Assembly (NCBI GenBank): GCA_950097015.1
Contig: CATNEN010000003.1
Location: forward strand, 15,500,001 to 15,564,000
Reading direction: 5' to 3'
Length of the DNA: 64,000 nucleotides
Source of the DNA: Macrostomum hystrix
Lineage: Eukaryota > Animalia > Platyhelminthes
Shown: positions 18,027 through 59,717 of the stretch, one piece after another
Position numbering within the stretch: the stretch's first letter is position 1
How the letters are laid out: each line of letters begins with the position of its first letter
Position numbers and translations under genes: made by a program
The notes under the pieces: generated by a model
What the model saw: the letters and a program-made list of their open reading frames with translations, nothing else
The model's database searches: none
Told to the model about the DNA's origin: nothing

Positions 18027-19954
18027 CTGAAATAAAAAGTGTTTTAAAACATATAAAACAGTTGCTAAATATAAACCAATTGAAAGATAAATAAGAATAA
18101 TACTACCATACACTTGGCTTGGCCTAGCTATTGCAATTAAATGTGAGTTTATGACAGCATCAAACTCATAGCACACAATCAAACAAATGTCTAAAAATAT
18201 CAAACGAGTTAATTCTCAATAGACAAAAATAAAAGGTTCATAAAGTATAATCTAATATAAGGTTTATATAAAATCATAAATTAAAACAGCTAAAGAATTT
18301 TTTATAACATGCTAGCCCAGCTTACCAATTTTTGCTATTAAAACAATAAAAACATAGTAATTAGGGACACGGCTGTCATGCCTATAATGCCTGAACTTAA
18401 GGGCATAGTCAATGGTAGAACTAAAATTTTTGTAGGGAGGACCTTTGGTCCATCTTTGGAGTGGACCAAAGGTGAATTATCTTGGACAAGTGGCAGATAG
18501 GGTTTAATGGCTATTTTGTAGAAAAAATTTCTTGTCCCCCCTTACTATCTTCTGGCTTTTCTGGCAGAAAGGGTCCCTTTTTAAGGGGGTGGTCTATTGT
18601 TGCACCAGTCTGCCAGTCTGCAGTCACCAGTGGGCATGGTGGCCATATGTGCAAGAGATATATGTATTTTTGGATCTGCTAGGTTTATGAGTGCAATTGC
18701 ATCAGTACTGCATGTTAGGCCTAGGACAAGCTTGAACTAGGCCCTAATAACATTTTTCTAATGCCAAGAACAGACTTTGCTAGGCCTATAATATGATATT
18801 AAATTCCCATTTCTACTTTACTTAAATCAACTTTTAGGAATGACTGGTTGTTGTCACGAATAGACTATAGTTAATTATATAGGTAATAGCTAAAAAATAT
18901 ATAATTATGCTTTATATTGTAGGTGGACCTAGTTTACAAACTTTTTAACTGCTTTATAACGTTCTGTTCAGCTAGAGAAAGTAAAGCAGAGAATTATTGG
19001 GCTATATAAATATAATGTGCTGAATAATTGTCACAAGATCAACCAACAAGGTTTTCTGATTAAAAAGGCTTTATGTATAAAATAACCATTGAATATCTGT
19101 AGCTCTTAATCTCAAACCTAGGCTAGGCTAAGCTAACGCAGCCGCTATTTACATCTAAAAACGATATTATAATCGCTTTAAATAAAAAACATGACATGAT
19201 TTAGGTAAAATCTAGCTCTTTTGGGACTCATACACATGGCATAGCTCATACATACATACAAGCTTATTCACATGACTTGACAATTATACTTTGTAATGTG
19301 GACACAAAAGTACGTGCTGCTATATTACAGTATAGTATAATTTTTATTCATTCGCGTTTCGTAGAAAATGAAAAGTTATATTATTCTTGTGTTTTAAGCA
19401 GTGAAACAAAACTTCCACATAATTGTATTTTATTGCTCTTCAGAAATAAATTTTTATTGTTTAACTTTGTAAATTGTGTAAGATATTAAACTTTTGTTAA
19501 ACAGTAGTTATAAAAACAAAATTTATTTGGTGACAAATTTCTAAATTGGGCTCGGGAAGCTTTAATAGAATACTGCATTGTTTTATTATTAATGTTAAGT
19601 GCACACCTTTGACTGTAAGACTAAAGGTCGCAATAAAAAGTTTATATATAATAAAGTCTGTAAAGACGATTTGGACCCGTAAACTTAAAAGAAACGATAT
19701 TTAAAATATCGCCGGCTTTATGATGCAACGAAAACTTCTTAAGTTGTGTTTTGAACAGCTTCGATTCTGCGAAACAAAACACTTCGTTTGAGTACTGTAC
19801 ATTTTTGCTGTATCGTAATTTATTATTGGCTTGTACTACATTCAAAATTAAGTCTGCGCCTACAAGTCGACAAAAAATCATTGCAGACTTCGTTAATTCT
19901 CTTGAGTGTGTATGAACTCATTATATTGGTACAATATTGGCACTAGAAATACAA

Positions 19955-26077: not shown

Positions 26078-26404
26078 ATGAAAGCTGCTCTAGAGCTGTC
26101 GATGCTACTGCTGTGCCTCGGCCTGCTGCTGACTTGCCCGCGCGAGTCGCATCAGCTGCCTCTGGAAGATGACGAAGTTCCTGCCTGTTTCCATCCGGTG
26201 CTGACCTGCAAGATCAAAGGCAATTCGTTTGTTTACACCAACATCTGTGGCAAGTCCTGCCGATGCGATCGACCAGATGCGGACATCTGCGATCCCGGAT
26301 GCAACGAGGACACCAAGACCTGGTTCAATGGTCTGACTAGCTATTCGCTCTATTTTAAACGCTGCAAAGATCTTCGTAAAGAGCTCAAGATTGATTACGA
26401 ATGA
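26078..26404 (+). CDS. Intronless secreted cysteine-rich small protein (108 aa), family unknown
   Basis: ACAATG start context, hydrophobic signal peptide MKAALELSMLLLCLGLLLTC, eight Cys in the mature part, coding-like GC content against AT-rich flanks, TATA upstream, AATAAA ~26542. Confidence 0.8.
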   Translation: MKAALELSMLLLCLGLLLTCPRESHQLPLEDDEVPACFHPVLTCKIKGNSFVYTNICGKSCRCDRPDADICDPGCNEDTKTWFNGLTSYSLYFKRCKDLRKELKIDYE

Positions 26405-41100: not shown

Positions 41101-44100
41101 CTAGTCTACAAATCCATCTATCTAATCTACAAATCCATCTATCTAATCTACAAATCCATCTATCTAATCTACAAATCCATCTATCTAGTCTACAAATCCA
41201 TCTATCTAATCTACAAATCCATCTATCTAATCTAGAAATCCACCTATCTAGTCTACAAATCCATCTATCTAATCTACAAATCCATCTATCTAATCTACAA
41301 ATCCATCTATCTAATCTACAAATCCATCTATCTAGTCTACAAATCCATCTATCTAATCTACAAATCCATCTATCTAATCTAGAAATCCACCTATCTAGTC
41401 TACAAATCCATCTATCTAATCTACAAATCCATCTATCTAGTCTACAAATCCATCTATCTAATCTACAAATCCATCTATCTAGTCTACAAATCCATCTATC
41501 TAATCTACAAATCCATCTATCTAATCTACAAATCCATCTATCTAATCTACAAATCCATCTATCTAGTCTACAAATCCATCTATCTAATCTACAAATCCAT
41601 CTATCTAATCTACAAATCCATCTATCTAATCTACAAATCCATCTATCTAGTCTACAAATCCATCTATCTAATCTACAAATCCATCTATCTAATCTACAAA
41701 TCCATCTATCTAGTCTACAAATCCATCTATCTAATCTACAAATCCATCTATCTAATCTACAAATCCATCTATCTAATCTACAAATCCATCTACTTTTGAA
41801 ATTTTTAAAACCATTTTTTAATTCACCTATTTTATCTCAAAATCAGTCCGAAGCTCCTATTACTTGGCTACAGTCCAACTCAGTGTCCATCCTGTCAGAC
41901 TTCAAATTTAAAGTTCCTATTTGAAACAAACAATCCTCTTTCAGGTTTGACGAGCTCTATCAGCTGTACAAGGGCCGTCTTCCTCCCCAGCTCAGTCGTT
42001 TAGATCCGCGCCTATTCTGCAAGCTGCTGTTTCACGCGCTGGGCCTAAACGAACACGACTTCAAATTCGGCATCTCCAAGGTGTTTTTTAGGCCGGGAAA
42101 ATTTGCCGAATTCGATCAATTGTTGCGCTCTGATCCGGAGAACATTGCCGTGCTGGTGGCCAAAGTGAAATCTTGGCTAGTTCGCTATCGATGGCGCAAA
42201 GCTCAGTACTGCGCTTGGGAGGTGGTGAAGCTGCGCAGGAAGATCGCCTGGCGTCGCGAAATGCTTGTTAAAGTACAGAAGACCATGCGAATGTGGATCT
42301 GCGTCAAGAAGTTTAGACCGAGAATTCGCGGCCTAGCCAAAGTGCAAGCGTTGCGTAATAAGCTCAACGCCATGAACGACATTGTTAGCCAATTGAAGGC
42401 CGACAAAGAGTCCGCCAAGAAGTCTGTGGACAGCCTTATCGCCGATGTTGATGCCGTTGTCAAACAGATCAAGGTTAGTGAGACTTCTGTATTGCGATTA
42501 TTAATGATTCTTTTTTCAACTAAAAACCTCCGCTGTCACATCTCCGTGTCCATTCTTCCTCCGTTATCTCCCCGTGTCTCTTCTCCTCTGTTGTCTTATC
42601 TCCCCGTGTCCCATCTTCCCCGTTGTCTTATCTCCCCCGTGTCTCATCTCCCGGTGTCTCATCTCCCCGTGTCTCATCTCCCCCGTGTCTCATCTCTCCG
42701 GTGTCTCATCTCTCATTTGTCTCATCTCTCATTTGTCTCATCTCCCTCGTTTCTGCTCTCCCTTTGTCTCATATCTCCCCTCTTATCTCCCCCGTGTCTC
42801 ATCTCCCCTCTTATCTCCCCCGTGTCTCATCTCCCTCGTGTCCTCTCTTTCCGGTGTCTCATCTCTCCCCTCTCATCTCTCCTTTGTCTTATCTCTCCCG
42901 TTGTCTCATCTCTCCCGTTGTCTTATCTCTCCCGTTGTCTCATCTCTCCCGTTGTCTTATCTCTCCCGTTGTCTCATCTCTCCCGTTGTCCTATCTCTCC
43001 CGTTGTCTCATCTCTCCGGTGTCTCATCTCTCATTTGTCTTATCTCCCTCGTTTCTCCTCTCCCTTTGTCTCATATCTCCCCTCTTATCTCCCCCGTGTC
43101 TCATCTCCCCGTGTCTCATCCCCCCGTGTCTCATCTCTCCCGTGTCTCATCTCCCCCGTGTCTCATCTCTCCCGTTGTCTCATCTCCCTCGTGTCCTCTC
43201 TTTCCGGTGTCTCATCTCTCCCCTCTCATCTCTCCTTTGTCTTATCTCTACCGTGTCCTATCTCCTAGTTGTCCTATCTCTCCCGTGGTCTCAACTCTCC
43301 TGTTTCATTTTTCACCCTTCTCGTCTCTCACTGTCTCATCTTGCATGTCTCATTTATCCGCTGTCTAATCTCTCTCCTTTCTTGTCTCTTCATTTTCTGA
43401 TCTCTCCTGTCTGATCTCTTTACACGTGGCCCCTACTGAATTAAGGCAATTTGATACAAATATTTATCGGAAATGGACGAGTTTAGACTTGTGTTTTAGT
43501 TATAGTGAATCAGCATCGAAGTGTGTTTTATTTACTTCTATCTTTGTATGCCAGAAAATTAGCGAATAAAGTGCATGCATAAAATACGGGACAATTCTTA
43601 TTGGCCAGTTCGCTGCAGTTGTATCCAATGGGCGATGTATGTACTCGTAGACTTGAAAGAATAGTAGATCACATACTTCATACCCATATATATATATTGT
43701 AGTTAGCCTACGCGTGTTGAAATATGGTTGAAACTAACGTCAGCCAGCCCTCTGCTGTTGCTATCATCGAATTCAACACGCGTAGGCTAGCTAGAAACCG
43801 CGTTTCAGCCCTCTGCAGCCTATCAAAATCGGTATTGATGTGTATATATGTGCGGTTCAAGTACAGTAACGCCTTCACTAACGCCCAGTGAAAATGCGCA
43901 TAGTACGAGCTGTTTTAGCTGCACTGTGTCTGGCCTACATAGTTTTCTTCTTCATTGTTAGCTTCAAGAATAATCTGAAAGCGAGAATTGCTTATCAACT
44001 AACTAATCAGCCTGATCTAAACGCGTCAGAGAATGTCGACAAGCTGCAATCCGATAGATTTATAACACGCATTGTGCATCACAGCTGGAAAGTTCGTCAG

Positions 44101-46579
44101 TTGCCAACCAAACGAGCAGAAGCCTGGAGCGCCAGTTGGAGAAAGTGTTTTCCGAACTGGCAGTGGCGGCTATGGACAGATGAGGATAATTTGGCTCTAG
44201 TACGGGATCATTATCCTTGGTTCTTGCCCGTCTACCTTAGCTTTAGTAAGTCGATTGAGAGAGCCGATGTGGCCAGATATTTCTACATGTTTCACTACGG
44301 CGGTATTTATACGGATCTGGACAATGTGTGCATAAGAAACTTTGAGCACCTGCTCAATTCTACGGCCCTACTATTTGGCGGCATGGATGGCATCTATGAT
44401 AATGAGCCGCTGCTTGGGACCTACGTGCAAAATTCTTTCATGGCCTCCCGACCCGGGCATCCGTTCTGGATGCGTCTAATCAGTCTAATAATGATCTATA
44501 AGCTTCACGGTCGGCCTCGCGACAATGGCCGGCCGGCCTACATAACTGGCCCGGAGGTTCTCATGGAAGAGCTTAGACAGTATCGTCGAGGAGCGTTTAA
44601 AGATGCTCAAATCTATCCTGGAATGTACTTCAATCCGTTTAGCTGGTACAGAAACAATGTGACAGCCTGCAAGGATCTTGGCCGGATGACAGATGTGGAC
44701 GAAGCTCGTTGCATTGCCGCATTTCCTAATGCTTTTGTTGTTCAATTGCACACCCAGAGTTGGCTACTGGGCCATCTGTAACTGTGCTTAAACCAGAGAC
44801 TGTTTTTAGTTTCGATGATTTCTAATCGTTTCAGCTCAACTACTCGTACTTAACACTTCCTTGCTTGTCAACTTTGCGTGGAAAAAGAAATCCAATTATA
44901 TAAAAATAAAACTGGTGACAGAGATCACATTGTATAACGAACGAGTAAAATAACAAATCGGTAGATTTTACAAACTATTATTAAGATAAATATGAATGAA
45001 ATTAAATGAAAATGGGCAGGTAACAAGCTAATCCGAAAGGGGTCGGAGTGGCATAGCGATTAGTGCGTTTGTCTCTCGCACACCAAGGTCCCTGAGCTCG
45101 ATTCCGCGGCAAGGCCGCGTTGAGAAAGTACAGAAACGATGTACAACTTGTGTGTGAGCGTGTGCCTGCATACGATATCTGTGTGCTTGTGTGCTCAGGA
45201 GTCAGCGAAACGGGCAGAATTGCCTCCTCGTTGGCTGCGGGTCTAGTGTCACCAAATGATGTGCCACTGCCTGCAGCCCTCGTGCAATTATAGGTTTTTC
45301 CGGTCAAGTAGCAGACTAGCCTACTCAAGAGCAAATATCGCAGTTCAAGTGCGACATATTCAAGTCAAGTGGCAACAAGCGAAATCAAGTTGCAAATTGT
45401 CTATTCAGAGTTACCAAAAGAGCAAGTCAAGTGCAACATAGTCAATTCAAGAAGCAACTCATTCGTTTCTATGTGCATTTCAAATGAATCCTCGCAATTC
45501 TCGCTCAAATGATTCTATCAGTCGCTGCTTGTCCCCAGCGGGTATTCTGGCTCGTGCGGCAGCCATTTGCTGTTGAGTTGGCTTTGTCGCACTTGGTTTG
45601 GCCTTTTCTCTCTGTCGTCGTCATTGCGCAACAGTGGGGGTATATAGAGAAGCGCTCTGATTGGCTAATTTGCAATTGAACTGCGTTTGCACTTGACTTG
45701 GCTATTTTGGCAGATCAACTGACTTTCATGGACTTGAGAAGGCTATAGTCTGCTACTTGACCGGAAAAACCTATATTACGAGTATTTTTAATTATTCTTA
45801 TATAGGACAAATTCTATTGTCCTATTGTATCAAAATTAGTTAAAAATAAAAGCTCATTGGATTTATCAAACCTTGCTCCCACTCGTAAAAAGGTCTTAGA
45901 AGCCCTAGCTAATTTGACATTATGCTTTTTAAAAATCGCCACATAAAGACTGATGCCCTGTGGTTAGAGGTCAGGAGTTCGATTTCGGGAGTAATTGCGT
46001 CTTAAATAAATAAAACTCGGAGTGGTTTGCCTCGCACATTCCGACGCAATTTATAACTCGAATTCTCGCACAAATAAACAATCAAACGCAGACAGCGCAG
46101 CGAATGTCCTACGCGGAAGTTGACGCCAGCTACACTAAGCTTACTGTGAAATTCGACACTGGCTTCGCCGAGCTCAAGAAGCGCTTGGAGCAGCAGAAGA
46201 TACGCGAGGAACAGGAGCGACTGCGCCGCATCCAAGAGGATATGGAACGCGAGCGGGCCAAGAAGGCCGAGGAGGAGCGCCAGCGTCAGCTAGCCGACGA
46301 GGAGAAGCGGGCCCGCGTCGAACTGGAAGATCGCCGTCGACGAGAGGAGGCCGAGCGAAAGAAGCAAGAGGAGGCCGATAAAAAAGCAGCCGCCCTTTTG
46401 CAGAAGCAGATGGAAGAAGAGGCCGAAGCTAATAAGAAGCGATCGCAGGACGAGGAGCAGGAGAGGCTGGACAGAGAATTGGCGCTGCGCTTGGCTAGCG
46501 AAGATGCTAATCAGGTGAGACATTGCCGATGACCTATTATTAACGACCGATATACTATTATTATATTATATTATCAATA

Positions 46580-46614
<35 letters not shown>

Positions 46615-49600
46615 AACGATTGTTTAATGACCGATTGGTAATGACAGATTATAAATGACTGTTTTTTAAGGACAGTTTTTATGACCGACAGTTAATGACC
46701 GACTATTTATGACCTACTGTTAATGACCGACTGTTTACGACCGACTGATAATGACTGATCGTCGATGACTAATTTTTGATGACCGATTGTTAATGACCGA
46801 TTTTTATTGTCCGACTGGTAATGACCAATTGTTGATGTCTGATTCCAAATGACTGATTGTTAATGACCAATTGTTGATGTCCGATTCTAAATGACCGACT
46901 GTTAAAGACCAATTGTTGATGTCCGATTCTAAATGACCGATTGTTAATAACCGATTGTTAATGACTGATCGTTGATGACGGATTGTTAATGACCGATTGT
47001 CAATGACCGATTGTTAATGACTGATCGCTGATGACGGATTGTTAATGACCGATTGTCAATGACCGATTGTACATGTTTCCGGGCGAATTTAATCATATGG
47101 CAATTTTGCCCATTTTGTTGACTTCTCGAATGTTCTTCGACGATGACCGATTGCTCATTGGCGATGACCGATTGCATATTGACGATGATCGATTCTTAAT
47201 GACAGATTGTTTTTGGGTAATGAGAGTTTTGTAATGACAAATATTCCATTGGGTGATACTCAGTGTTTTATCGATTGGATAGGTGGTAATAATATATTTT
47301 TAAGTAGCAATTGTTTGAAATGTCGTTTTCAATAGATACTTTCTTGGCATAGGCACTTTCTTCAAAACAAACTGCCTTGAATTTCTCAACCTCGCAAGGT
47401 TGAAGATCTTCAGCAGGGCCAGGCGGTTGGCGGTGGCCTGACACGCGGCGCAAATGTTCTACAGAAGCGTGCCCAGATTAGCAATAGCAAATACGATCTG
47501 AGCAAATGGAAATATGCCGAATTGAGAGACACTATTAATACTTCGTGCGATCTGGAACTGCTGGCCGCCTGTCGCGAGGAATTCCAACGCCGATTGAAAG
47601 TTTATCACGAATGGAAACAGAAGAATAAGCAGCGTGGCGGTGGATCTAATGCTGCTGCTGCTGCTGCTGCTGCTGGTGGTGGCGGCAAGACTGAAGGATC
47701 CAGGGCTCCACAGTCCGTTCTTGAGAATGGTGAGTTGCTTCTCCACATTGCCTCTTAATATTTGTGCTAGTAAGAATAGTGTAAAGTTACAGTACCTACG
47801 GTGGATAATCGTTAAATATTTGTCATTTATCGGATAGGAAATTAACTATGTGTATTTGGTTGGATTAAAAAATACTAGTCATTTGTTGGGTAGGATAGGA
47901 GGCTACGATTGGTCATTGGGTCGGGTAGGATGAAATGACTGGTCATTAATTGGGTAGGGTAGGATGAAATGACTGGTCATTCATTGGGTAGGGTAGGGTT
48001 AAATGACTGGTCATTCATTGGGTAGGGTAGGATGAAATGACTGGTCATTCATTGGGTAGGGTAGGGTTAAATGACTGGTCATTCATTGGGTAGGGTAGGG
48101 TTAAATGACTGGTCATTCATTGGGTAGGGTAGGATGAAATGACTGGTCATTAATTGGGTAGGGTAGGGTTAAATGACTGGTCATTCATTGGGTAGGGTAG
48201 GATGAAATGACTGGTCATTCATTGGGTAGGGTAGGATGAAATGACTGGTCATTCATTGGGTAGGGTAGGATGAAATGACTGGTCATTCATTGCGTAGGGT
48301 AGGATGAAATGACTGGTCATTCATTTGGTAGGGTAGGATGAAATGACCGGTCATTTTATCAGGTTGGGTAGAGGCAATGAATTGTCATTCATTGGGTCAT
48401 TGGGTAGTGTAGGATAAATAACTGGTCATTCATGGGGTAGGGTGGAGGCAATGATTGGTCATTCATTAGGTCATTGGGTAGTGTAGGATAACATGACTGG
48501 TCATTCATGGGTTAGGGTAGAGGCAATGATTGATCATTCATTGGGTCATTGGGTAGTGTAGGATAACATGACTGGTCATTCATGTGGTAGGGTAGAGGCA
48601 ATGATTGGTCATTCATTAGGTCATTGGGTCGGGCAGGAGGAAATAACTGGTCATTTATTGGCTTGAGTATGATAAGACTACGGATCATTCATAGGGTCAT
48701 TGGGAAGGATTGAGGCAGTCATTGTTCATTCGTTTAGTAGTCTAGGAAGTAACGTTCTCCACGTAGTGTGTAACGCCATAACTTCCTCATATAACTTTAA
48801 TTAAACACGAAATGTTAAGTTGGGGTTTCATAAATTAAAAATAGTCATTAAAGCTAGTAATAGATTATGAATTGTAGATTTTAGCTAAATTCCAACTTAT
48901 TTAATGCTTTATAGACAGCCATTCACCAACCGCATCAAGTTGTGAGTAATTAAAATAGATCAACTGTTAAATGTTCAGTTCACATGTTCGAAGACCTTCT
49001 AAAGTGTACTGTTATTAGCCGAGTGTTTGTTTGGCGGGTAAATCAAATTAAAACTTTTATTTCATTTTCATTTGAATTTCAGCGAAGCCAGCTGTAAAGC
49101 AAGGTAAATTATCGAGTCAGTTTGCTTAAGTTAGCATATATATAGGAAATCTTTTAAGTATAGTTAGTGATATTGCACCGGTTTTATGCGGTGTTGGGAA
49201 ATATTTCGCTTTGCCTTCTCAATCCTCGTAGACCAGTTTTCTATTTGTTTTTAGTCGAATGAAGATTTTTGTCGTAAAATTTAAAAGGACTAAACAGTCT
49301 ACTACTACTGATTACTAAGCTTTCTGAATTGTCCTGGTTTGCCTCTCATTGTGAACATAAATCGTTCTCAAATCATTTTTCGCTACATATAGGCAATTAT
49401 TTTCTAATCTAAATTGAGAAGCCTCATTTGTCTTGAGCAAGAGCAAGAGTAATTTAGAGCGAGGCATGTCGGATTTAATGAATTTTCTAAATCAGTTAAA
49501 AAACTGTTACTAATTAAATTCTAGTATTATTGCTAGCTTAGTCAATACGTTGTTCCGTGCTGCGGTGATGTGGAATGAAGTTATTTTAAACCGATGTCTA

Positions 49601-50864
49601 AGGCAACATTTTTCTTTTGGAATATTTGCTTCTGTTTGCATTTCCTTTGCATCTTCGATTCAAATAATTTCGTTGCTTAAAATACTATACTAATGTATGT
49701 TTTGTGATTTCAGCAGAAAGAAATTCAAAATTCATTTTATACTACTTGATTTTATTTAGTAGCATTTTTGCAAAAATGCTCTTATTTTCTAATATGCGTC
49801 TAGAATTTCGCTTAGAAAAATTCATTCGTTTAATAAAAATCTAGAAAACTATTAAAAACCCTGTTATTTGAGCCAACAATAATTGTTCATAAATTCCTAT
49901 AACAGAAGAACTATTTAAACTAACAGTTACAGCTAGAGATTACTATTTACGCTCGATGTAAATATTTATAGTGTCTTCTAGGCTTACCAATTATATATGC
50001 CAACTAAATATGTATTCGTTTTCGTATTTAAATTTGATAAAAAAATTGAGAATTTCTTCTTAATATAATTACTATAATTTGAAGCATAGGGTAAATTTAA
50101 AAGAATGGATGAGTTTTTGTGTTAAAATACGTTTTTTGCATAGCGGCAAAATTTAACTACAACAGTACCGACTAAAAAAATGATTCAAATTTGATGAAAG
50201 TATTAAAAATGTCTTTTAAGCTTGATGATTATAATTTAAAGCATCGCGCCAATTTAAATTGAGTTCTTCGTTTTCGTTTTAACATGCTTTTTTCTATACA
50301 TATCGGTTGGACTGTATTATCGCCATGATTAAAGTTATGTATTATTCGAAACATGTATGCCTTTCTTCATTGACAAATACTCATACAAGCACATACACGT
50401 TTTTCAAAACATATCGGCTTCTCTCTACCCTTGAAAAAATCTCAGCCGTGACTGTGGAAGGCGCCGTAGCCGCCCAGCGTCAGCTAGCCGGTCGCATTGG
50501 CGAGCCTGGCGATCCTAAATCGCAGCGCTATTTTCACATCCCATTCGCTCGTCCGTCCGAGTTGAATCGCGGCACGGACGCCGATCAGCACTCCGGCGGG
50601 CAGTGGTGGGCCCACTTCGACGGCCGCTGGATCGCTCGCCAGATGGAGATTCAGCCCGGCCAGCCGGCTGTGCTACTATTAGCCGGCGTTGACGATATGA
50701 ACATGTGCGAATTAGGCTTAGAAGAGACCGGCCTGCCGCAGAAGAAGGGCGCCGAGATTACAGCCGCAGAGTTTAATCGCGAATGGGAGAAGCACGGCGG
50801 CGCCGCCCTGCTCAAACAGCATCGAGCTGCGATGTCGTCTCTGTTTTTGAAGAAAAACATGTGA
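29177..50864 (+). CDS. MYO6: Unconventional myosin VI
   Basis: Exons 29177-29290, 29373-29442, 29529-29602, 30155-30449, 31216-31478, 32338-32418, 33504-33684, 36074-36531, 38901-39526, 41945-42473, 46092-46514, 47399-47729, (48915-48941, 49083-49103), 50446-50864, all phase-consistent. [11 protein letters not shown] start, P-loop GESGSGKT, switch [10 protein letters not shown], switch II DIAGFE, reverse-gear insert-2 ([17 protein letters not shown]), IQ, E/R/K-rich SAH, cargo domain [23 protein letters not shown] and [13 protein letters not shown]. Confidence 0.97.
29636..30057. repeat. Intronic minisatellite, 20-bp unit CCTAAATCTAAAACCTAGAT
   Basis: About 21 tandem units. Confidence 0.95.
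30596..30898 (+). mobile_element. SINE family B, internally deleted copy
   Basis: GGGGTCAGTGGCCGAGC head and body matching the reverse complement of 16150-16474. Confidence 0.8.
30984..31185 (+). mobile_element. SINE family A copy
   Basis: GGGGTTGTAGCCTGGTGGTTTGGGCGTCGG head, GGTTCGATTACC B-box, body matching the reverse complement of 5030-5256. Confidence 0.82.
31570..32100. repeat. Intronic minisatellite, ~20-bp unit AATCCAAAACCGAGGTCCTT
   Basis: Tandem units with a repeated higher-order block; related short array at 26880-26980. Confidence 0.92.
32691..33109. mobile_element. Non-autonomous DNA transposon (CMC/EnSpm-like MITE), copy 1
   Basis: Termini CCCGCTAAAAA...TTTTTACAGGG, 2-bp TSD TG; 419 bp, nearly identical to 51259-51677. 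Confidence 0.88.
34150..35385. repeat. Intronic minisatellite, 39-bp unit CAGCCCTTTATCCTCTCTCTCTTCAGTGCTTCAGGCAAT
   Basis: About 31 units; explains ORFs 34148..35458 and 34188..35150. Confidence 0.97.
37490..38770. repeat. Intronic minisatellite, ~27-bp unit ATATAATCCCACTCTATTCCCAATCAG
   Basis: Long tandem array with minor variants. Confidence 0.96.
39615..41792. repeat. Two abutting 21-bp intronic minisatellites (AAATCTACCCTTCTAATCAAC, then AAATCCATCTATCTAATCTAC)
   Basis: Switch between related units at ~40860; almost G-free on the + strand. Confidence 0.97.
42530..43420. repeat. Degenerate CT-rich tandem repeat (TCTCATCTCCCCGTG-like)
   Basis: Begins right after the myosin donor at 42473; creates the spurious low-complexity tails of ORFs 42081, 42574 and 42623. 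Confidence 0.9.
43894..44781 (+). CDS. Intronless GT32 (DXD sugar-binding) glycosyltransferase, SUR1/CSH1 mannosyltransferase-like, nested in myosin VI intron 10
   Basis: N-terminal type II anchor, [39 protein letters not shown] (DxD), [22 protein letters not shown]-terminal HTQSW; TATA-like ~43843 and AATAAA ~44905. Confidence 0.92.
   Translation: MRIVRAVLAALCLAYIVFFFIVSFKNNLKARIAYQLTNQPDLNASENVDKLQSDRFITRIVHHSWKVRQLPTKRAEAWSASWRKCFPNWQWRLWTDEDNLALVRDHYPWFLPVYLSFSKSIERADVARYFYMFHYGGIYTDLDNVCIRNFEHLLNSTALLFGGMDGIYDNEPLLGTYVQNSFMASRPGHPFWMRLISLIMIYKLHGRPRDNGRPAYITGPEVLMEELRQYRRGAFKDAQIYPGMYFNPFSWYRNNVTACKDLGRMTDVDEARCIAAFPNAFVVQLHTQSWLLGHL
45039..45290 (+). mobile_element. SINE family B, internally deleted copy
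   Basis: GGGGTCGGAGTGGCATAGCG head, B-box-like GCTCGATTCC, 3' end GCAGCCCTCGTGCAATTA. Confidence 0.82.
45291..45773. mobile_element. MITE with 28-bp terminal inverted repeats
   Basis: TAGGTTTTTCCGGTCAAGTAGCAGACTA ... TAGTCTGCTACTTGACCGGAAAAACCTA, flanked by TA (or TATA depending on boundary); inward subterminal CAAGT/ACTTG repeats. Confidence 0.88.
46555..47200. repeat. (ATT)n microsatellite followed by a degenerate ~14-bp repeat GACCGATTGTTAAT
   Basis: Read directly. Confidence 0.85.
47925..48720. repeat. Intronic minisatellite, 34-bp unit GGGTAGGGTAGGATGAAATGACTGGTCATTCATT, degenerating into a dimeric higher-order form
   Basis: About 12 clean units then diverged units; palindromic core AATGAC-TG-GTCATT. 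Confidence 0.93.
48915..48941 (+). CDS. MYO6: Putative 27-nt myosin VI microexon (DSHSPTASS)
   Basis: TTTATAG|...|GTGAGT, symmetric phase 1, no stop. Confidence 0.65.
49083..49103 (+). CDS. MYO6: Putative 21-nt myosin VI microexon ((S/A)KPAVKQ)
   Basis: Long T-rich tract plus ATTTCAG|...CAAG|GTAAAT, symmetric phase 1, no stop. Confidence 0.65.
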
Positions 50865-51258
50865 ACTGGTGTTTTCAGTTTTAGAAAACTAAAATAATAC
50901 GCAACAAAACTACTTGCTTTGATCTAAGTAGTATAAATAGACTTTTTGGTTTTTTAATTCGGTTCTTTTGTTTACTGTTTTATCCTCGCTTCGTCAAAGT
51001 ACTTATTTAGCCGATAAGTTTTTCTAAATTTCTAACTACACTTTCGTAAATTAACTGAGAAGGCTGTCTTATCAGAATAGATTAGCTGCTAATTAATTTC
51101 GTTAATTCATTACTTTCATCGTCTGATTATCATAATATTTTGCTATTCTAGTTCTAGTAGTGTAGTATTAGAAGGAAAAAACTAACTACTTGCTCATTTC
51201 AGAAACATAATACAAATACGTTCTGTACTACTTAGGTAGCGTTGGTTTTAAGTAGCAT

Positions 51259-51677
51259 CCCGCTAAAAAATAGGGATGTTTCTTTGGGTGATTCCAGTTG
51301 GAATCTGCGGTGTTTCCAGAAAAAGAAACAGCCGACCGCTGGAAACATACCAATCGGATGATTCCATGCTTAGAATCTACCCAACTGGGCGTTTTCTCGG
51401 AGCTTCTTGGTGGCGAAATGGAATCACCCAAAGAATCCTCCAGTTCGGAAGATTCCATGCTCAGAAACCGCCGAGGAATCGCCCGTAAATAATTATCTGG
51501 TTGTCCCATGGGCCACTGTTTCGGGTGATTCTTCGGCGGTTTCCGCACAATTTTCGGTTACATCGGCTGCTTCCTCGGTGGTTTCTTTAACTCTTGCGAG
51601 ATAGGGGGGGATTTTCGTAGATTCCACTCCTATTTTGCACAAAAACCCGCCGAAGAAGCAGCCGATTTTTTACAGGG
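51259..51677. mobile_element. Non-autonomous DNA transposon (CMC/EnSpm-like MITE), copy 2
   Basis: Same 419-bp element as 32691-33109, here with 2-bp TSD AT. Confidence 0.88.
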
Positions 51678-53199
51678 ATAGAGTGAAAAAAAACAGAAAA
51701 CATAAATTACGAATGCAGTATACTTTTATAATCACATAAATTTTTTTAACAATTGGCATGGTAATTTTATTTCGTAAAAATGCACTACTTTTTTATCATA
51801 TACTACTTGATAAATTCAGATTTTATTATTGGCTTACCACTCTGCTATTATTAAGTAGCTTATGACTATTTATACAAGAAATGCACGTCATTGAATATGC
51901 ATGTTATTCGGGACCAATGCTGTCAGTTGTTTGATTTCAATTACAAATTTTCAGTTCCAACCGACACCAATTTCTGCTTCTAGAGGCATTCCTTTCTATG
52001 CGACCGCATTGTTATTTTTTCTATTCGTTGTTTAGACTGTTCAAGCTTGTCTTCTATCAACGGATATTTATGAACTAGTTTTCTTTAGTTTATAAATTTC
52101 ACCTGTCGCTCACCTAGAAAACTACTTATTGCTTTGTTTATCCTTGCGCCTCTTCTAGCTAATAAAAAATATTGACGTTCCTCCACGCTTTGATTTGTGA
52201 TTCCTAATCAATTTTTAAGTGTTTTTTTTCAGAATTTTAGCACTTATTATGTTCGTTATTAGCTATTACTAAACCTGAAGCTAATTACTACTTTCCTACT
52301 ACTACTTAACAGTGCACATAGTACTACTATCAGTAGAAATGTCTTAAAAATAATCATTTCTTTTCTAGGTTTGAGTTTCGTTTTATTTTATTAAGCAATT
52401 GTTGAAACTAAACATTCCATTTTGTTCGTCCTATTTGTTTTATCCAGGGTTTTTAAGTCGATTCGATTTGCTTAATTAAGGGTTTTTTTGGTTTTTTTTA
52501 AATGCTTTGGTGTCCACCCTGTGTGCGTAGGCTCGTGCCAACTTCTTATTTAGCAACACAATTCGACCTGGAAATATTAAAATCTAGTTATTATCATAAC
52601 TGCTCTACTTGTAATGATGTTAATTTAGTCAATTTGTTTTTTTCTGTATTCGAGATCAGTAAAGAAAGATAGCCAAAGATTGTTATTGAAGCAAAAAGTA
52701 TTTTTTTGTTTAAACTGACCCACCAGCTAGCGCACATGTTAAAAAATTCTTTTTTAGCACATTTTAGATTAAAATTTTTTTTAACAAACAATATCTGATA
52801 AGACGCTAGATTTTCCAACATAATGTAATATAATTTGACATGTTTTTACACTTTATTTTACCTACTGACACAAAAGCACGAATATTGATTTTAACAATTT
52901 CTATTTTAACAATAGAAGTTAGCATACATATTTAATTTAACAGGACTATTGTACTTTATTTATAACATTTTATATACTTCTAACTACTTCATATGTTATA
53001 AAACTTATTTTATTGTCAATTAGACTCACTGTGTCTACTACTTTTTATGTCTTGAATAAAATATATGTGTTATTATTTCACTAAGCTTTAATTTTATTAG
53101 GACACCGACATAATTTGCCAATTACTAGTTCTCTGCTTTGATTGCTTTCGTTATAATCTTGAACTGATCTTGTGCCAATTTTTTTCGGCTTCTGGTCTT

Positions 53200-53650
53200 T
53201 TAGTTGGTCCTCGTTTTCTTCTACAACAGGTCCTCGTTTTCTCCCACAATACCTGGTCCTCGTTTTCTCCTACATTTGGTCCTAGTTTTCTTCTACAACT
53301 GGTCCTCGTTTTATCCTTCTCATTGTCCTCATTTTCTCCTAAATGTGGTCCTCGTTTTATCCGTCTCCTGGTCCTTGTTTTCTTCATATTTGGTCCTCGT
53401 TTTCTCCTACACCTGGTCATCGTTTTCTCATACACCTGATCCAAGTTTTCTCCACATTTGGTACTAGTTTTATCCTACCTTTGGTCCTTGTTTTATCCCA
53501 CATTTTGTCCTTGTTTATCTGACTCCTGGTCCTCGATTTTATTGTACACCACCCGGTCCTCGTTTTTTCTGACTCCTGGTCCTCGTTTTCTTTGACTTCT
53601 TGACCTTCAGTTTGGTCCTCGGTCCTCATTTTCTCCGACTCCTGGTCCTT
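53200..53650. repeat. Degenerate tandem repeat built on GGTCCTCGTTTTCTCC
   Basis: Motif recurs about every 24 bp. Confidence 0.85.
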
Positions 53651-53719
53651 CACTTCTATAATATCTGGTTTCAGACGATTACGGGCCTATTTAACGCGCT
53701 TCTATCGTTTTAATTTCAG

Positions 53720-55929
53720 GCCGAAGAACAAGAAATTAACCTGCGCTGCCTGCTGCTCTCCTCCAAGGAGGGTGTACCGCTTGGCGAAATCACCAGGGAC
53801 TATCGTGTCCTAGCATCCAAACAGTTGGATCTGAATGGCAAATCTAGTCTGGTTGAGTATCTGTTATCCCTTCCTCATGTTGTCAGGTTGAGACCAGATC
53901 CATCAGCTAGCGGCGGCTACACCTGCTTCGGCATTGTGACGGAATCTGCCAGAGGAATTGTCGATTTAATTAGTCGCCAAAAATCTAAAAGCAAGAAAAG
54001 ACGCAGCAGACGCAAATTGATAAGTTCGAATCCTTCAATTAGTCGTCAGGTGGCAAATTGCTCGAAATCTAAGCCGCCTTCGCTGCCACCTCCGGCTTCC
54101 CGACAATCGTTGACACACGTGCCGTGAGTTTTACTGAATTTCTTAACAGGTCATTAACGTAGAATAGTTTTCTACGCTTCTTTAGACTAGCTTTCTTCGA
54201 TTCCTTAGATCAGCTTCCTTCGATTCCTGAGATCAGCTTCATTCGATTCCTTAGATTAGCTTCCTTCGATTCCTTAGATCAGCTTCCTTCGATTCCTTAG
54301 ATTAGCTTCCTTCGATTCCTTAGATTAGCTTCCTTCGATTCCTGAGATCAGCTTCCTTCGATTCCTTAGATTAGCTTCCTTCGATTCCTTAGATCAGCTT
54401 CCTTCGATTCCTTAGATCAGCTTCCTTCGATTCCTGAGATCAGCTTCCTTCGATTCCTAAGATCAGCTTCCTTCGATTCCTGAGATCAGCTTCCTTCGAT
54501 TCCTGAGATCAGCTTCCTTCGATTCCTTAGATTAGCTTCCTTCTATTCCTTAGATTAGCTTCCTTCGATTCCTGAGATCAGCTTCCTTCGATTCCTTAGA
54601 TTAGCTTCCTTCGATTCCTTAGATCAGCTTCCTTCGATTCCTTAGATCAGCTTCCTTCGATTCCTTAGATTAGCTTCCTTCTATTCCTTAGATTAGCTTC
54701 CTTCGATTCCTTAGATTAGCTTCCTTCTATTCCTTTGATTAGCTTCCTTCTATTCCTTTGATTAGCTTCCTTCTATTCCTTAGATTAGCTTCCTTCGATT
54801 CCTTGGATTAGCTTGCTTCGATTCTTCAGACTAGCTTCCTTCGATTCCTTAAATTAGCTTCCTTCGATTCCTTAGATTAGCTTCCTTCGATTCCTTAGAT
54901 TAGCTTCCTTCGATTCCTTAGATTACCTTCCTTCGATTCCTTCGATTCTTCATGCTTTCTACCTTCGACTCTTCAGTCTAGGTTGCCTTGAACACCCCAA
55001 TCGTTTTAATTTGTGTTGACACGAATGTAATAAATACACACTTATGCATTTCACACAGACCCTATAATCTTCGAAGTCAACAAAATCGAATATTTAAGCC
55101 GCTGCAGCAACTGCAACAAGTACCGCAGCAGCAGCAGCAGCAGCAAAAGAAGACTGCAGGTCAATCTATTCGACCCCTCCTGCAGGCGCAGCCGTCGCGA
55201 AAGCCTCTTGGCTTCTTCGAGACCTGCTGCATCGACCTATTCAGCACGAGGCTGATCGGTCATGAATTTATTGCGCGCTATCAATTATTGGATTCGGAAA
55301 ATCTCGCAGCCATTGAAACTGTGACAGCGCTATCGTTGAAGAAATCTGTTAGATCGGCTATTGATGAGGCTGAAGCTCTTTTGAAACAATTATCAGACAA
55401 ATTTGGCGAAAATCTTTTCTGCGGCATAGCTAGCAAGGCCGACATATTTCTTAATGACGAAGTCTACCTGTTGCAAGTTGACAAGAATTTAGTCCGATGC
55501 ACTCTGACGCAGTTTGATGGCAACTACGCCGAGGTGCTTCTTACAGACGGACCAGTTTGGGGTGTTGGTCGCACTCGAATTAAACTAGATAGACTGATTC
55601 GTCTGCCACCGGCTTGTCGCGTGTTGAGTAGGCGTTTATTAAAATTCTTCACTAACAAGTTAGATAACAATAACGATAACAGCGATGCGATTGAAGCTGA
55701 AAGAATCGGATTGGCTCAACAGATAAGCCTGGCTAGGATAGGATTAGCCAGTTTGCCGCCTATCTGTGCCTATGTCCGTTGTCAACTAAGAAATCCTTAC
55801 ACAATCGCTGCTTCTGCTAACGGAATGAAATCTGATATCAACGACTGGCTGCCGGCTAGGAAAATCCGTCTGTTGGTACCAGGCGATAAGGCTGTCGGAG
55901 CGTCTCCGCTGGTTGAACTACTGGATTGA
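53720..55929 (+). CDS. LOTUS (OST-HTH) domain protein with degenerate Tudor region, TDRD5/Tejas-like; start codon not located
   Basis: Exons 53720-54123 and 55059-55929 (phase 2 join). INLRCLLLSSKEGVPLGEITRDYR...LVEYLLSLPHVVRL...TESARGIVDLISRQK fits an extended LOTUS domain; LVRCTL..AEVLLTDG..IKLDRLIRLPP and LPPICAYVRCQL resemble an extended Tudor fold. Confidence 0.8.
54185..54950. repeat. Intronic minisatellite, 23-bp unit GATTAGCTTCCTTCGATTCCTTA
   Basis: About 33 units. Confidence 0.96.
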
Positions 55930-56024
55930 ATTTCTGCGTTTTTTTAAAGGCCTCGACTAATAAGACCATCGAAGTTTAATTTGTTCTTTTTATTTCCTTT
56001 TAGCTGTAGTTTTAATCGTCCTGG

Positions 56025-56600
56025 GGGATTCCCTGATCGCTCAGGTGTAAAAAGTCATTAGGGATTCCCTGATTGGTCAGGTGTAAGAAATCATTAAGGA
56101 TTCCCTAATTGGTCAGGTGTAAGAAGTCATTAGGGATTCCCTGATTGGTCAGGTGTAAGAAATCATTAGGGATTCCCTGATCGCTCAGGTGTAAGAAGTC
56201 ATTAGGGATTCCCTGATTGGTCAGGTGTAAGAAGTCATTAGGGATTCCCTGATTGGTCAGGTGTAAGAAGTCATTAGGGATTCCCTGATTGGTCAGGTGT
56301 AAGAAGTCATTAGGGATTCCCTGATTGGTCAGGTGTAAGAAGTCATTAGGGATTCCCTGATTGGTCAGGTGTAAGAAATCATTAGGGATTCCCTGATCGC
56401 TCAGGTGTAAGAAGTCATTAGGGATTCCCTGATTGGTCAGGTGTAAGAAGTCATTAGGAATTCCCTGATTGGTCAGGTGTAAGAAGTCATTAGGAATTCC
56501 CTGATTGGTCAGGTGTAAGAAGTCATTAGGAATTCCCTGATTGGTCAGGTGTAAGAAGTCATTAGGGATTCCCTGATTGGTCAGGTGTAAGAAATCATAG
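56025..56600. repeat. Minisatellite, 36-bp unit GGGATTCCCTGATTGGTCAGGTGTAAGAAGTCATTA
   Basis: About 16 units just downstream of the LOTUS-Tudor stop. Confidence 0.96.
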
Positions 56601-57129
56601 TAAGAAAAAAAGTTTTTTAGTCTCGCGTTTCCCTGATTGGCCTATTGTTCTAGTTGCTAAGGCTTTTTTTGTTGCTGTAACTTTCCTTGTGCGAACAAAT
56701 AAATTTAGATTACGCTCATAAATTAGTTGTATTTTTGTGTATGTAATTTCTTGAAAACGCATTTTAGTTGAGAATAACCTCTTTCTTATAGAATAAGAGC
56801 CCATTAGTTTTCACTCTAACGTGAAACTCTAATTAACATATTTTCCGGTCCAGCGCTATTATAGCTTTCAAAGCACCAAGACTTCTTTCATTTCCTTGCG
56901 TGTCAAGGCAGTAAATTTACTAATTTCATTTTTCTCACGACAAAAATATTTTTTCGCTAGTTTGTTCTATTTTTATATCCCCAAAATTCAAATGGTGCCT
57001 TTGTTTGTGTTCCATTTGTGCGAATAAAATCCGCTTCTTCAAACTAAAAAGTAACGGCACAAGCCTTGTCTTAAAAGTGCACTATAAGAAAGTTTTCTTT
57101 ATCCTATTTGGGTTCTTTGATAACTAAAA

Positions 57130-57725
57130 TCGGATCTTTAAAGTCTGATTTGGCATCTTTGATGTCTGATTTGGGATCTTTGATGTCTGATTTGGGATCT
57201 TTGATGTCTGATTTGAGAGCTTTGATGTCTGATTTGGAATCTTTGATGTCTGATTTGGAATCTTTGATGTCTGATTTGGGATCTTTGATGTCTGATTTGG
57301 AATCTTTGATGTCTGATTTGGAATCTTTGATGTCTGATTTGGAATCTTTGATGTCTGATTTGGGATCTTTGATGTCTGATTTGGGATCTTTGATGTCTGA
57401 TTTGGGATCTTTGATGTCTGATTTGGGATCTTTGATGTCTGATTTGAGAGCTTTGATGTCTGATTTGGAATCTTTGATGTCTGATTTGGAATCTTTGATG
57501 TCTGATTTGGAATCTTTGATGTCTGATTTGGGATCTTTGATGTCTGATTTGGGATCTTTGATGTCTGATTTGGGATCTTTGATGTCTGAATTGGGATCTT
57601 TGATGTCTGATTTGGGATCTTTAATATCTGATTTGGGATCTTTGATGTCTGATTTGGGATCTTTGATGTCTGATTTGGGATCTTTGATGTCTGATTTGGG
57701 ATCTTTGATGTCTGTTTTGGGATCT
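57130..57725. repeat. Minisatellite, 21-bp unit TCTGATTTGGGATCTTTGATG
   Basis: About 28 units; explains the (KDPKSDI)n ORFs. Confidence 0.96.
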
Positions 57726-57827
57726 TCGGATTCAGAAAGGCATCCAAGTTGAAATAGTTTTATTTCTAAGTTAATCAAATTATAGCAAATATTTTTTCTT
57801 GTATTTTCTTAACAATCGCAATTTCAG

Positions 57828-58232
57828 GATGCTGTCGTGGCGCCAGTTGAAGGGGAGGATGCTGAGCAGCAGCAGCAGCAGCAGCAGCCAGAAGTGTCTG
57901 AGCAAGAGCTGTATCTGCGAGCTGTACTGCTCTCGGCTAGGCGAGGCGTTCCACTGCCCTCTCTGGAGCGTCAGTATCGGCGCCTGTGCTATCGGCCCCT
58001 GGAGTGGAGTTTCGACGGCCGTCACCCGAGCCTGCGCCATTATTTAGAGTCTTTGCCCCACGTTGTCCTATTGGAGGTGTCCCAGAATGGTCGCCGGATT
58101 ATCTGTCACGGAGTTGTAACGCCCAGGACTGCTCACATTGTGAGCCTGATACGTGCCGAGCGACCGCAGCCTCCGCCCCCGCCTAGGCCGGTGATTGTTG
58201 TGAATCCGTTCGATTCGGCCCCTGCAGCTTGA
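57828..58232 (+). CDS. LOTUS-only small protein, paralog of the upstream LOTUS domain; start codon not located
   Basis: Acceptor ATTTCAG|GAT in frame; EQELYLRAVLLSARRGVPLPSLERQYR...LRHYLESLPHVVLL...CHGVVTPRTAHIVSLIRAE aligns with 53720-54000; Pro-rich tail then stop. Confidence 0.8.
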   Translation, partial: DAVVAPVEGEDAEQQQQQQQPEVSEQELYLRAVLLSARRGVPLPSLERQYRRLCYRPLEWSFDGRHPSLRHYLESLPHVVLLEVSQNGRRIICHGVVTPRTAHIVSLIRAERPQPPPPPRPVIVVNPFDSAPAA

Positions 58233-59717
58233 GATGCGATCTAAAGACATCCGCGGTTCAGTCCGCGGACCGGGCTATCCTTGGCACCAATCTAAATTTG
58301 AACAGTAGGGGGAGCCTTAACTCTAATATTGTGCCAAAAAAATTGTCCAATTGTCCAAGCCGTTAAGTACGTCATGTAATTTTGCTAGCTCTATAAAATT
58401 GTATACCGTAAATGTTGTCTTAGCTTTCTTAACAATATGAAAAGTATTTTTAAGTTGAAATATGAATTTTTCTAACCGAATTGGTTGTTATTTTTTATAT
58501 TTAACAGCACTACTTTGTTTTCTTTTTTTTAAGCAGTGTGTTTTTTAACAAACATTGTTTTTAGGCCCACTTGCCGTAGCGTTGAAACGAATTTTTTTTA
58601 ACTTTCGGTACGTCGTTCTAAATAACTATTATTTCACCGATGTTATGCAGCCAAGTATTTAGGGCATATAATAATTGCTTTCCATTTGCAGAACTTTCTT
58701 TACACCGGCCTTCGACATTGTATTTATGCTGCAATAATTATTTCGGCGTGTGCGTGATTCATAACACATTATTTTCTGCTTCTAAATTGCTTGTTTGCTT
58801 GCTATTCGCCGCTTTTACTTCTTTTAGCTATGTAATTACTATTGAATAATCGGTTCGTATTATTCTACTGTTTACTATTCCTTTATGTTAAGTTTACATC
58901 ATTATTGTTTTGCCAGTTTTTCTGACGTTTTCTAACATTTAACTTTTTACTAAAAAATTGTCTCGTTTCCTGTTTTTCTTCTAACATTTAATCATTTTTA
59001 CTGTTGTCGTAAACATTATCATTATCTAAACAATATTTATTTGTAAAGTTCAAATTTATTAATTTAACTTGTGTGGATTTACAATTTTGCTGAAGATGCG
59101 CTTTTATTGTCTTCTCCCTGAACCTCGTATTTAAATAGATATTTAGAATTGGCGTATCTTACTCGAATAAATATACTTGACAAATGATTTCGCAGCACTT
59201 AAATAACTGTCATAACACCAGTTAAATCTTAACGAATCAGATGGATTGAAATTTTTATTGGTTTCTCTGTTTTCATGTTATCTGTATGTCAAATAATATG
59301 ACTTTATAGTTATAAATTGTATCAGCCAATTATTGAATTAGTACGAGTTAATACAATATCGTGGGAATAACGAGGCTTATCTGGCTTATCCGCTGTCGCC
59401 AGCAATGGCTCCAATTAAAGACGTATATTTTAAGCGTGCCAGTGCCAAAAATGACAGATATTAACAAAATGGGACTTATAGCTAGTGAACCATGCAATTT
59501 TAGATCTCAAACGTGCATTCTCTTGACGCCAGAGACAGTGAACTTTGTCAGGTCTATATTGCTCTTAGACCCATCAAGCAACAAACTGCGTATAAGCCTT
59601 TCGTTATTGCCGCGGTATCATGTGAATAAGTACGACACAAACCTGTTAATATTTATCACTTGCAGCAAAATTTATATGCGCCTAATATTTATTATTAATA
59701 AATATGCGCCTTCAGAA

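What the first reader, a model, noticed from the sequence alone, without database searches (positions are those of the whole stretch)
50864..58232. Start-codon-less LOTUS genes opening at phase-0 ATTTCAG acceptors: candidate spliced-leader-supplied AUG and operon
Seen: both LOTUS genes start at ATTTCAG|G (53720, 57828) with the frame open from the first base and no ATG before the domain. The DUSP first exon (18026) does the same, and the myosin 5' UTR acceptor (29095) is also ATTTCAG, whereas only one of about 25 internal acceptors I traced has this heptamer. Established: flatworm spliced leaders end in AUG, which can act as initiator, and SL trans-splicing resolves polycistronic transcripts. 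Inference: these ORFs may receive Met from the SL, and MYO6-LOTUS1-LOTUS2 (co-directional, 1.9-2.9 kb gaps) may be an operon. Tiny cis ATG|GT exons remain an alternative.
Basis: partly seen in the sequence, partly recalled or inferred. Interest (0 to 1): 0.8.

Follow-up and report, generated by a model that had tools for sequence, protein, structure and literature searches.

The report
Flatworm genes borrowing their start codon
Two neighbouring LOTUS-domain genes of a Macrostomum-type flatworm have no usable start codon in their DNA, and their RNAs carry a spliced-on leader ending in an in-frame AUG that likely starts the protein, a mechanism already known from parasitic flatworms.

Summary
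Confirmed for both LOTUS genes. Contigs of public runs begin at the AG of 53720 and 57828 and run on into 22-24 non-genomic letters. These match the 3' end of the published Macrostomum spliced leader (SL), which ends in ATG. The letters are printed for 1 of 4 runs at LOTUS1 (2 more have an overhang of the same size) and 3 of 4 at LOTUS2. All come from one study. The SL AUG is in frame in both genes. Without it LOTUS1 (424 codons, two exons) has no in-frame Met before residue 391, and LOTUS2 (134 codons) has none. M. lignano orthologs of LOTUS1 are deposited as 5'-partial, and two gene models read FQ at the same spot, as the acceptor does here. No contig uses the proposed cis ATG|GT exons. Initiation at the SL AUG is inferred, not measured. 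LOTUS1-LOTUS2 meets the published Macrostomum operon rule (703 bp after repeats); inclusion of MYO6 is open; no polycistronic RNA was seen. The DUSP and myosin acceptors were not tested with reads. The mechanism is known from schistosomes and tapeworms, so these are new members of a known kind.

The parts
53713..53719 (+). SL trans-splice acceptor of LOTUS1 (ATTTCAG)
   Evidence: SL loose end before 53719 in X4; X2 and X3 contigs start at 53719 with 23 and 22 unlaid letters
53720..54123 (+). LOTUS1 exon 1: extended LOTUS domain from the first codon, no genomic Met; donor GTGAGT at 54124 (phase 2)
55059..55929 (+). LOTUS1 exon 2 (phase 2 match), Tudor-like C-terminal region, stop TGA
   Evidence: 38% identity to the M. 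lignano ortholog; Tudor is a lead only
57821..57827 (+). SL trans-splice acceptor of LOTUS2 (ATTTCAG)
   Evidence: SL loose end in X2, X4, X5
57828..58232 (+). LOTUS2: intronless 134-codon ORF, stand-alone extended LOTUS domain, no in-frame Met; out-of-frame ATG at 57829
58233..58812 (+). likely 3' UTR of LOTUS2 (contigs reach 58408-58428; further contigs 58411-58812, strand of RNA unknown)
55930..57820 (.). LOTUS1-LOTUS2 spacer with two tandem arrays (56025-56598, 57106-57726); stop-to-acceptor gap 1898 bp, 703 bp without the arrays
50865..53712 (.). MYO6-LOTUS1 spacer: dispersed repeat about 51253-51677 (97% copy at 32691-33109), covered stretch 51636-52904 (possible long MYO6 3' UTR), AATAAA 53055, degenerate array 53204-53591
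29096..50864 (+). myosin VI-like gene with its own ATG at 29177; candidate SL acceptor 29089-29095, where an SL AUG would open a 5-codon upstream ORF (untested)
   Evidence: family name recalled from the translation
17955..18033 (-). DUSP first coding exon (18026-17955) behind ATTTCAG; long form has no in-frame Met until residue 118; SL joining not tested

Best explanation
Both LOTUS RNAs are joined to the Macrostomum spliced leader at their first coding base, and the leader's terminal AUG, which lands in frame, likely serves as the initiator Met for two predicted germ-granule (Vasa-regulating) proteins. Shown: a non-genomic leader at both acceptors, identical to the published SL 3' end; frame 0; no other usable Met. 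Inferred: the spliceosome uses the unpaired YTNCAG acceptor to replace the outron with the capped 35-nt SL; ribosomes start at the last SL codon (G at +4 in both genes) and make M-AEEQ... (425 aa, eLOTUS plus Tudor-like region) and M-DAVV... (135 aa, eLOTUS alone). Inferred with lower confidence: LOTUS2 is cut from a precursor shared with LOTUS1 (about 0.6), and MYO6 heads the same unit (about 0.4). DUSP's long form probably uses the same device (about 0.7, no reads).
For:: 22-24-letter loose ends before 57827 in 3 of 4 runs, laid part without differences or gaps; the fourth run (X1) has no contig there; the same 22 letters before 53719 in X4; X2 and X3 contigs start at the same base with 23 and 22 unlaid letters. 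With the shared G these equal the last 23-25 nt of the 35-nt M. lignano SL (PMC8629364); the letters are not in the window. First in-frame Met without SL: residue 391 of 424 and none of 134. Residue 2 of the M. lignano paralog P0008 (MADDQKINLRC) aligns to 53720. In 38 of 42 LOTUS hits examined the Met lies within 19 residues of the L-R motif, median 11; SL-Met LOTUS1 gives 8 (two low-complexity hits and P0001 left out). Three M. lignano orthologs are deposited as 'partial'; two other models read ...AFQ-EEQEVNLRC, matching FQ-AEEQ here. That annotation trimmed SL sequence before mapping (PMC5730564). SL AUG as initiator is established in flatworms (passages in PMC5832876, PMC3510090, PMC12582326).
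Against: All SL evidence is from assembled contigs of one study (X2-X5); the second study's run (X1) reaches neither 5' end. The runs are not on record as RNA; I infer RNA from spliced contigs. Contigs drop rare variants, and cis- and trans-splicing often share acceptors in parasitic flatworms (PMC12582326 section 11). The SL AUG has U at -3, and LOTUS2 has a competing out-of-frame ATG one base after it. M. lignano models P0004/P0005 contain an in-frame Met 11 residues upstream of the FQ, so an unspliced start is possible in that species. No translation or protein data. No contig bridges the genes.
Confidence: 0.86

Rival explanations
1. Tiny genomic ATG|GT exons (51758-51760, 56992-56994) are cis-spliced to the acceptors and supply the Met, as the main route.
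For: Each spacer holds exactly one ATGGT, phase-compatible; the one at 51758 has a fair donor (GTAATT). Shared cis/trans acceptors are common in parasitic flatworms.
Against: No joint from 51760 is listed and contigs of X1 and X3 cross it unspliced. The sequence 5' of either ATG differs from the loose ends. Six contigs (3 per site) run through the junction unbroken, which suggests one dominant 5' form (inference from how such contigs break at branches). 56994 lay outside the stretch laid, so it is excluded only through the loose-end letters.
Confidence: 0.03
2. The RNAs are SL-spliced but the SL AUG is mostly bypassed: LOTUS2 RNA makes the 72-codon +1 peptide or nothing, and LOTUS2 is a decaying duplicate or non-coding RNA.
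For: U at -3 of the SL AUG; ATG at 57829 directly follows. No close ortholog of LOTUS2 among 45 hits, best identities 27-55%.
Against: The frame-0 ORF keeps the LOTUS core and the C-terminal extension without stops, and the second ATG has the weaker context (U at -3, C at +4). LOTUS1 has a full-length ortholog with the same layout in M. lignano. A Met-less 134-codon ORF is easily left unannotated, which could explain the missing ortholog (inference).
Confidence: 0.08
3. SL-supplied AUG is right, but the genes are monocistronic: each has its own promoter and short outron. This rivals the operon part only.
For: In M. lignano only about 40% of SL genes are assigned to operons. Raw gaps are 1.9-2.9 kb. 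From the MYO6 stop or the contig end at 51034 the repeat-adjusted gap to LOTUS1 is about 1.9-2.0 kb.
Against: LOTUS1-LOTUS2 is 703 bp after repeats, under the 1-kb rule. If the covered stretch 51636-52904 is MYO6 3' UTR, that gap falls to 256-427 bp.
Confidence: 0.4

Closest known systems
Flatworm SL 3'-terminal AUG as initiator Met (Schistosoma, Cheng et al. 2006, PMID 16230357; Echinococcus granulosus, PMC3510090)
   Same: SL ends in AUG, joined in frame to an ORF that needs it for a conserved N-terminus. In E. granulosus 143 of 187 SL clusters were full length with the SL ATG, and some need it (passage).
   Different: Here the host is a free-living Macrostomum-type worm and the genes are LOTUS proteins. 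Neither has a spare in-frame Met near the start. Initiation was not measured here. Cheng 2006 itself was not held.
Macrostomum lignano SL trans-splicing and operons (PMC8629364; PMC5730564; PMC10468722)
   Same: Same SL 3' sequence, acceptor fits the reported [T/C]TNCAG motif, spacers inflated by repeats. PMC10468722 notes in a figure legend that the SL likely contains the final ATG start codon.
   Different: The passages I read name no gene that depends on the SL AUG. The window is probably another Macrostomum species: 72-77% identity in LOTUS, 38% in exon 2, 76% in a DUSP exon against M. lignano.
eLOTUS proteins TDRD5/Tejas, TDRD7/Tapas, Oskar (PMC5458760)
   Same: N-terminal LOTUS domain with the C-terminal extension that binds and stimulates Vasa; LOTUS1 has one Tudor-like region, as TDRD5 has one Tudor domain.
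   Different: LOTUS1 is short (425 aa) and its Tudor domain is not confirmed; LOTUS2 is a lone domain with an acidic/poly-Q leader and a proline-rich tail; orthology and Vasa binding untested.

Membership tests
Flatworm SL-AUG-initiated genes | [quoted passage not shown] | tested here: met
   SL sequence from PMC8629364
Flatworm SL-AUG-initiated genes | Acceptor matches the trans-splice motif (YTNCAG in M. lignano, UUNYAG in parasites) | tested here: met
   TTTCAG at both sites; motifs
Flatworm SL-AUG-initiated genes | SL AUG in frame with the main ORF | tested here: met
   contigs laid from 53719 and 57827 without gaps; first exon codons GCC and GAT
Flatworm SL-AUG-initiated genes | SL AUG required to make the conserved N-terminal part | tested here: met
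   next in-frame Met at 391 of 424 and none of 134; N-terminus aligns with homologs' Met
Flatworm SL-AUG-initiated genes | Initiation at that AUG in vivo; trimethylguanosine cap | not testable with these tools
   needs ribosome profiling, proteomics or cap analysis
Flatworm SL-AUG-initiated genes | SL RNA gene in this genome | not testable with these tools
   no genome held; none in the window
Flatworm SL-AUG-initiated genes (DUSP at 18026) | SL joined at the acceptor | not tested
   read-laying cap spent on the LOTUS sites; sequence only
Macrostomum operon (PMC8629364 rule) | Adjacent, same strand, downstream gene SL-spliced, repeat-adjusted gap under 1 kb: LOTUS1-LOTUS2 | tested here: met
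   703 bp from stop codon to acceptor after removing two arrays
Macrostomum operon (PMC8629364 rule) | Same rule: MYO6-LOTUS1 | tested here: inconclusive
   256-427 bp if MYO6 ends at 52904-53075, 1878 bp if at 51034; 3' end unknown
Operon (biological definition) | One promoter and a polycistronic precursor | not testable with these tools
   only contigs were available; none bridges the genes in the rows shown
eLOTUS proteins (TDRD5/TDRD7/Oskar) | LOTUS core | tested here: met
   E 1e-8 and 1.2e-7 to solved TDRD5/TDRD7 domains; Pfam below cut-off
eLOTUS proteins (TDRD5/TDRD7/Oskar) | C-terminal extension (alpha5) | tested here: met
   by sequence only: LOTUS1 aligns through the TDRD5 extension; LOTUS2 through Oskar's to residue 109 and in alignment A2
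TDRD5/TDRD7 | Tudor domain C-terminal to LOTUS (LOTUS1) | tested here: inconclusive
   no Pfam hit, no Tudor chain in PDB search; Atlas features 0.93 to Tudor clusters but recognition 1733, below 2300; fold job did not finish
eLOTUS proteins (TDRD5/TDRD7/Oskar) | Binding and stimulation of Vasa | not tested
   no Vasa sequence from this organism in hand

The most novel reading that the evidence does not exclude
LOTUS1 and LOTUS2 form a germline operon whose two Vasa-regulating proteins cannot be translated at all without the spliced leader, so SL supply would gate germ-granule assembly. The dependence is conserved between Macrostomum species, which would put obligate SL-Met initiation outside the parasitic flatworms and imply a class of Met-less Macrostomum genes now filed as partial or non-coding, LOTUS2 (a lone eLOTUS micro-regulator) among them.
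Probability: 0.35. Interest if true: 0.55.

Novelty: new member of a known kind. Interest (0 to 1): 0.36.

Why it matters
The mechanism is not new, but these are clean, read-supported cases in a free-living model genus with transgenesis, where my four literature searches listed no gene-level example. They give a direct reporter for SL-AUG initiation, including a natural AUG-G-AUG competition in LOTUS2. They also point to an annotation blind spot: trimming the SL leaves such genes as 'partial' (three M. lignano LOTUS1 orthologs) or may hide them, which matters for inventories of piRNA and germ-granule genes.

Tried and rejected
No genome is held for this window, so no genome-wide count of Met-less SL genes and no SL RNA locus search. 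The run search listed no holder on record as RNA; X1 gave no contig at LOTUS2 and none reaching the LOTUS1 5' end, which is no evidence either way. The low or absent cover of the spacers next to the acceptors (53094-53636, 57730-57826) is not used as evidence. The heptamer as a predictor by itself: rejected (13 seen, 18.6 expected). Homolog search with LOTUS1 exon 2 alone found nothing although a 38% ortholog exists, so blanks there are weak. Five exact window ORFs are not in the protein collection. The search of 50% representatives found no close LOTUS2 ortholog. The structure job for exon 2 never finished, so no fold search was run. Rfam found only a tRNA. Three look-ups in earlier scan findings were empty. 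Cheng et al. 2006 is not held. A paralog as the cause of contigs stopping at 54108 is not needed: a GT follows at 54109.
Full report
Setting. No genome is held. The window is 39% GC and rich in tandem arrays. It holds a DUSP gene (minus strand), a WD40 gene, a myosin VI-like gene and two LOTUS ORFs (the myosin class is recalled from the translation). The best named homologs of LOTUS1 and DUSP are from Macrostomum lignano at 72% and 76% identity, so the source is probably another Macrostomum species. The M. lignano LOTUS1 and DUSP homologs (PAA66246.1, PAA66250.1) lie on contigs of the same length, 310,231 bp, four accession numbers apart, from which I infer conserved linkage.

Observation. ATTTCAG ends at 53719 and 57827, and both frames are open from the next base. 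In-frame stops lie 3 and 6 codons upstream in genomic DNA. LOTUS1 is exon 53720-54123 plus exon 55059-55929 (phase 2 on both sides, 424 codons, first in-frame Met at 391); the M. lignano ortholog matches both exons. LOTUS2 is one exon of 134 codons with no in-frame Met but out-of-frame ATGs at 57829 and 57859. Among 23 internal acceptors traced by eye, 0 have ATTTCAG, 2 TTTCAG and 6 YTNCAG. The heptamer is not enriched in the window, 13 against 18.6 expected.

Read test. Five runs hold the LOTUS1 stretch: X1 (organism A) and X2-X5 (organism B, one study); none is on record as RNA. They behave as RNA: contigs start at exon edges (50445, 53719), X1 joins 48941 to 50446 across GT..AG, and loose ends at donor 54123 continue into exon-2 sequence. 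At LOTUS1 (X1-X4 laid), X4 shows a 22-letter loose end before 53719. X2 and X3 have contigs of 413 and 412 letters of which 390 lie on 53719-54108; their overhang letters were not among the rows shown (13 rows cut). X1 starts at 53831. At LOTUS2 (X1, X2, X4, X5 laid), X2, X4 and X5 show the same letters, 22-24 long, before 57827; X1 has no contig. With the G shared with the acceptor these are the last 23-25 nt of the 35-nt M. lignano SL, which ends in ATG. They are absent from the window at up to 3 mismatches. The SL is reported as highly conserved among three Macrostomum species (figure and supplements not seen). The joined reading is ATG GCC GAA and ATG GAT GCT, both in frame. Limits: one study, contigs only, rare forms invisible.

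Is the SL AUG the initiator? Not measured, but nothing else can make the LOTUS domains. Residue 2 of an M. lignano paralog that begins MADDQKINLRC aligns to 53720. In 38 of 42 LOTUS hits examined the first Met is within 19 residues of the L-R motif; SL-Met LOTUS1 gives 8 and LOTUS2 30 (P0010, P0037 and P0001 were left out). Three M. lignano orthologs are deposited as partial, and two other models run through ...AFQ-EEQEVNLRC, where the window reads FQ-AEEQ across its acceptor. I infer a conserved phase-0 acceptor; the M. lignano DNA was not seen, and those two models have an in-frame Met 11 residues further up. The M. lignano annotation trimmed SL sequence before mapping, which would produce such partial records. 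Against: U at -3 of the SL AUG and, in LOTUS2, a second ATG one base later, though in weaker context.

Operon. The published Macrostomum rule is same strand, downstream gene SL-spliced, repeat-adjusted gap under 1 kb. LOTUS1-LOTUS2 gives 703 bp from stop to acceptor and passes. For MYO6, organism-B contigs cover 50445-51034 and 51636-52904, around a dispersed repeat, with AATAAA at 53055. If that is one 3' UTR the gap is 256-427 bp; if MYO6 ends near 51034 it is 1878 bp. The strand of the covered stretch is unknown and no contig shown bridges the genes. In parasitic flatworms downstream operon acceptors have the least cis-splicing, which fits the unbroken SL contigs but does not prove an operon.

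DUSP and myosin. Not tested with reads. DUSP exons 18026-17955, 17151-17041 and 13109-12806 are in frame with the first Met at residue 118, after most of the rhodanese-like part (domain identity recalled). Two cis ATG|GT candidates exist upstream (19089, 18109). Homologs from M. lignano and an unnamed assembly start instead at a genomic ATG matching 9310, so a short form needs no SL. An SL AUG at 29096 would give a 5-codon upstream ORF before myosin's own ATG at 29177.

Proteins. Both domains match TDRD5/TDRD7/Oskar LOTUS structures and carry the C-terminal extension by sequence, the feature needed for Vasa binding (PMC5458760). A germ-granule role is inferred from family knowledge only. The Tudor assignment of LOTUS1 exon 2 is a lead not confirmed by Pfam or PDB sequence search.

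Literature seen. PMC8629364: parts 1-3 of 4, the whole main text. PMC9851317: part 1 of 4. PMC12582326: passages and section 11. PMC5832876, PMC10468722, PMC3510090, PMC5458760, PMC12147562, PMC5730564: passages. Cheng et al. 2006: not held, known from those citations and recall. Four searches listed no paper on these LOTUS genes or a gene-level SL-Met case in Macrostomum; most hits were seen as listings only, subscription journals are missing, and no supplements were read, where such gene lists could stand.

Verdict. It is a new member of a known kind: SL-supplied initiator AUG in a flatworm, confidence 0.86; LOTUS1-LOTUS2 operon about 0.6; MYO6 included about 0.4. Interest 0.36.

Noticed in passing
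window 54123 (donor of LOTUS1 exon 1): A second exon-2 sequence follows this donor: alone in X1, and (worked out by eye from the blended consensus) beside the 55059 exon in X2-X4. It is not in the window. It may be a cassette exon lost in the 23-bp array 54160-54947, an exon beyond 64000 (which would nest LOTUS2 in a LOTUS1 intron), or a paralog.
   Followed up: partly
window 54108-54110: Contigs of X2-X4 all stop at 54108, just before a GT: a possible alternative donor 15 nt upstream, same phase.
   Followed up: no
window 9310-8773 (minus): DUSP has a conserved genomic ATG at 9310 that reads through the internal acceptor at 9150; homologs P0050 and P0051 start there, suggesting a short isoform without the N-terminal domain.
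   Followed up: partly
window 43882-44781 (+): Intronless DXD glycosyltransferase ORF (Pfam Gly_transf_sug, E 1.8e-15) nested on the same strand in a myosin intron.
   Followed up: no
window 19956-24622 (+): WD40 gene, DCAF6/8-like by recall, divergent from DUSP with about 1.9 kb between its ATG and the DUSP exon at 18026.
   Followed up: no
window 25965-26404 (+): Small Cys-rich ORF with a hydrophobic N-terminus and a TATA-like box upstream; no Pfam hit.
   Followed up: no
window 51259-51677 and 32691-33109: Dispersed 420-bp repeat, 97% identical copies, with many contigs and varied flanks in the runs.
   Followed up: no
window 51636-52941: Non-coding stretch covered by contigs in all four runs laid, 98-99% alike in organism A: long MYO6 3' UTR or a separate RNA; AG sites at 51202, 51954 and 52232 could be acceptors.
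   Followed up: partly
window 5182-5255 (minus): tRNA-Val(CAC)-like gene, weak Rfam score 35.6 bits.
   Followed up: no
window 61777-61974 (+): 66-codon stretch behind another ATTTCAG (61760) that resembles a transposase remnant by recall.
   Followed up: no
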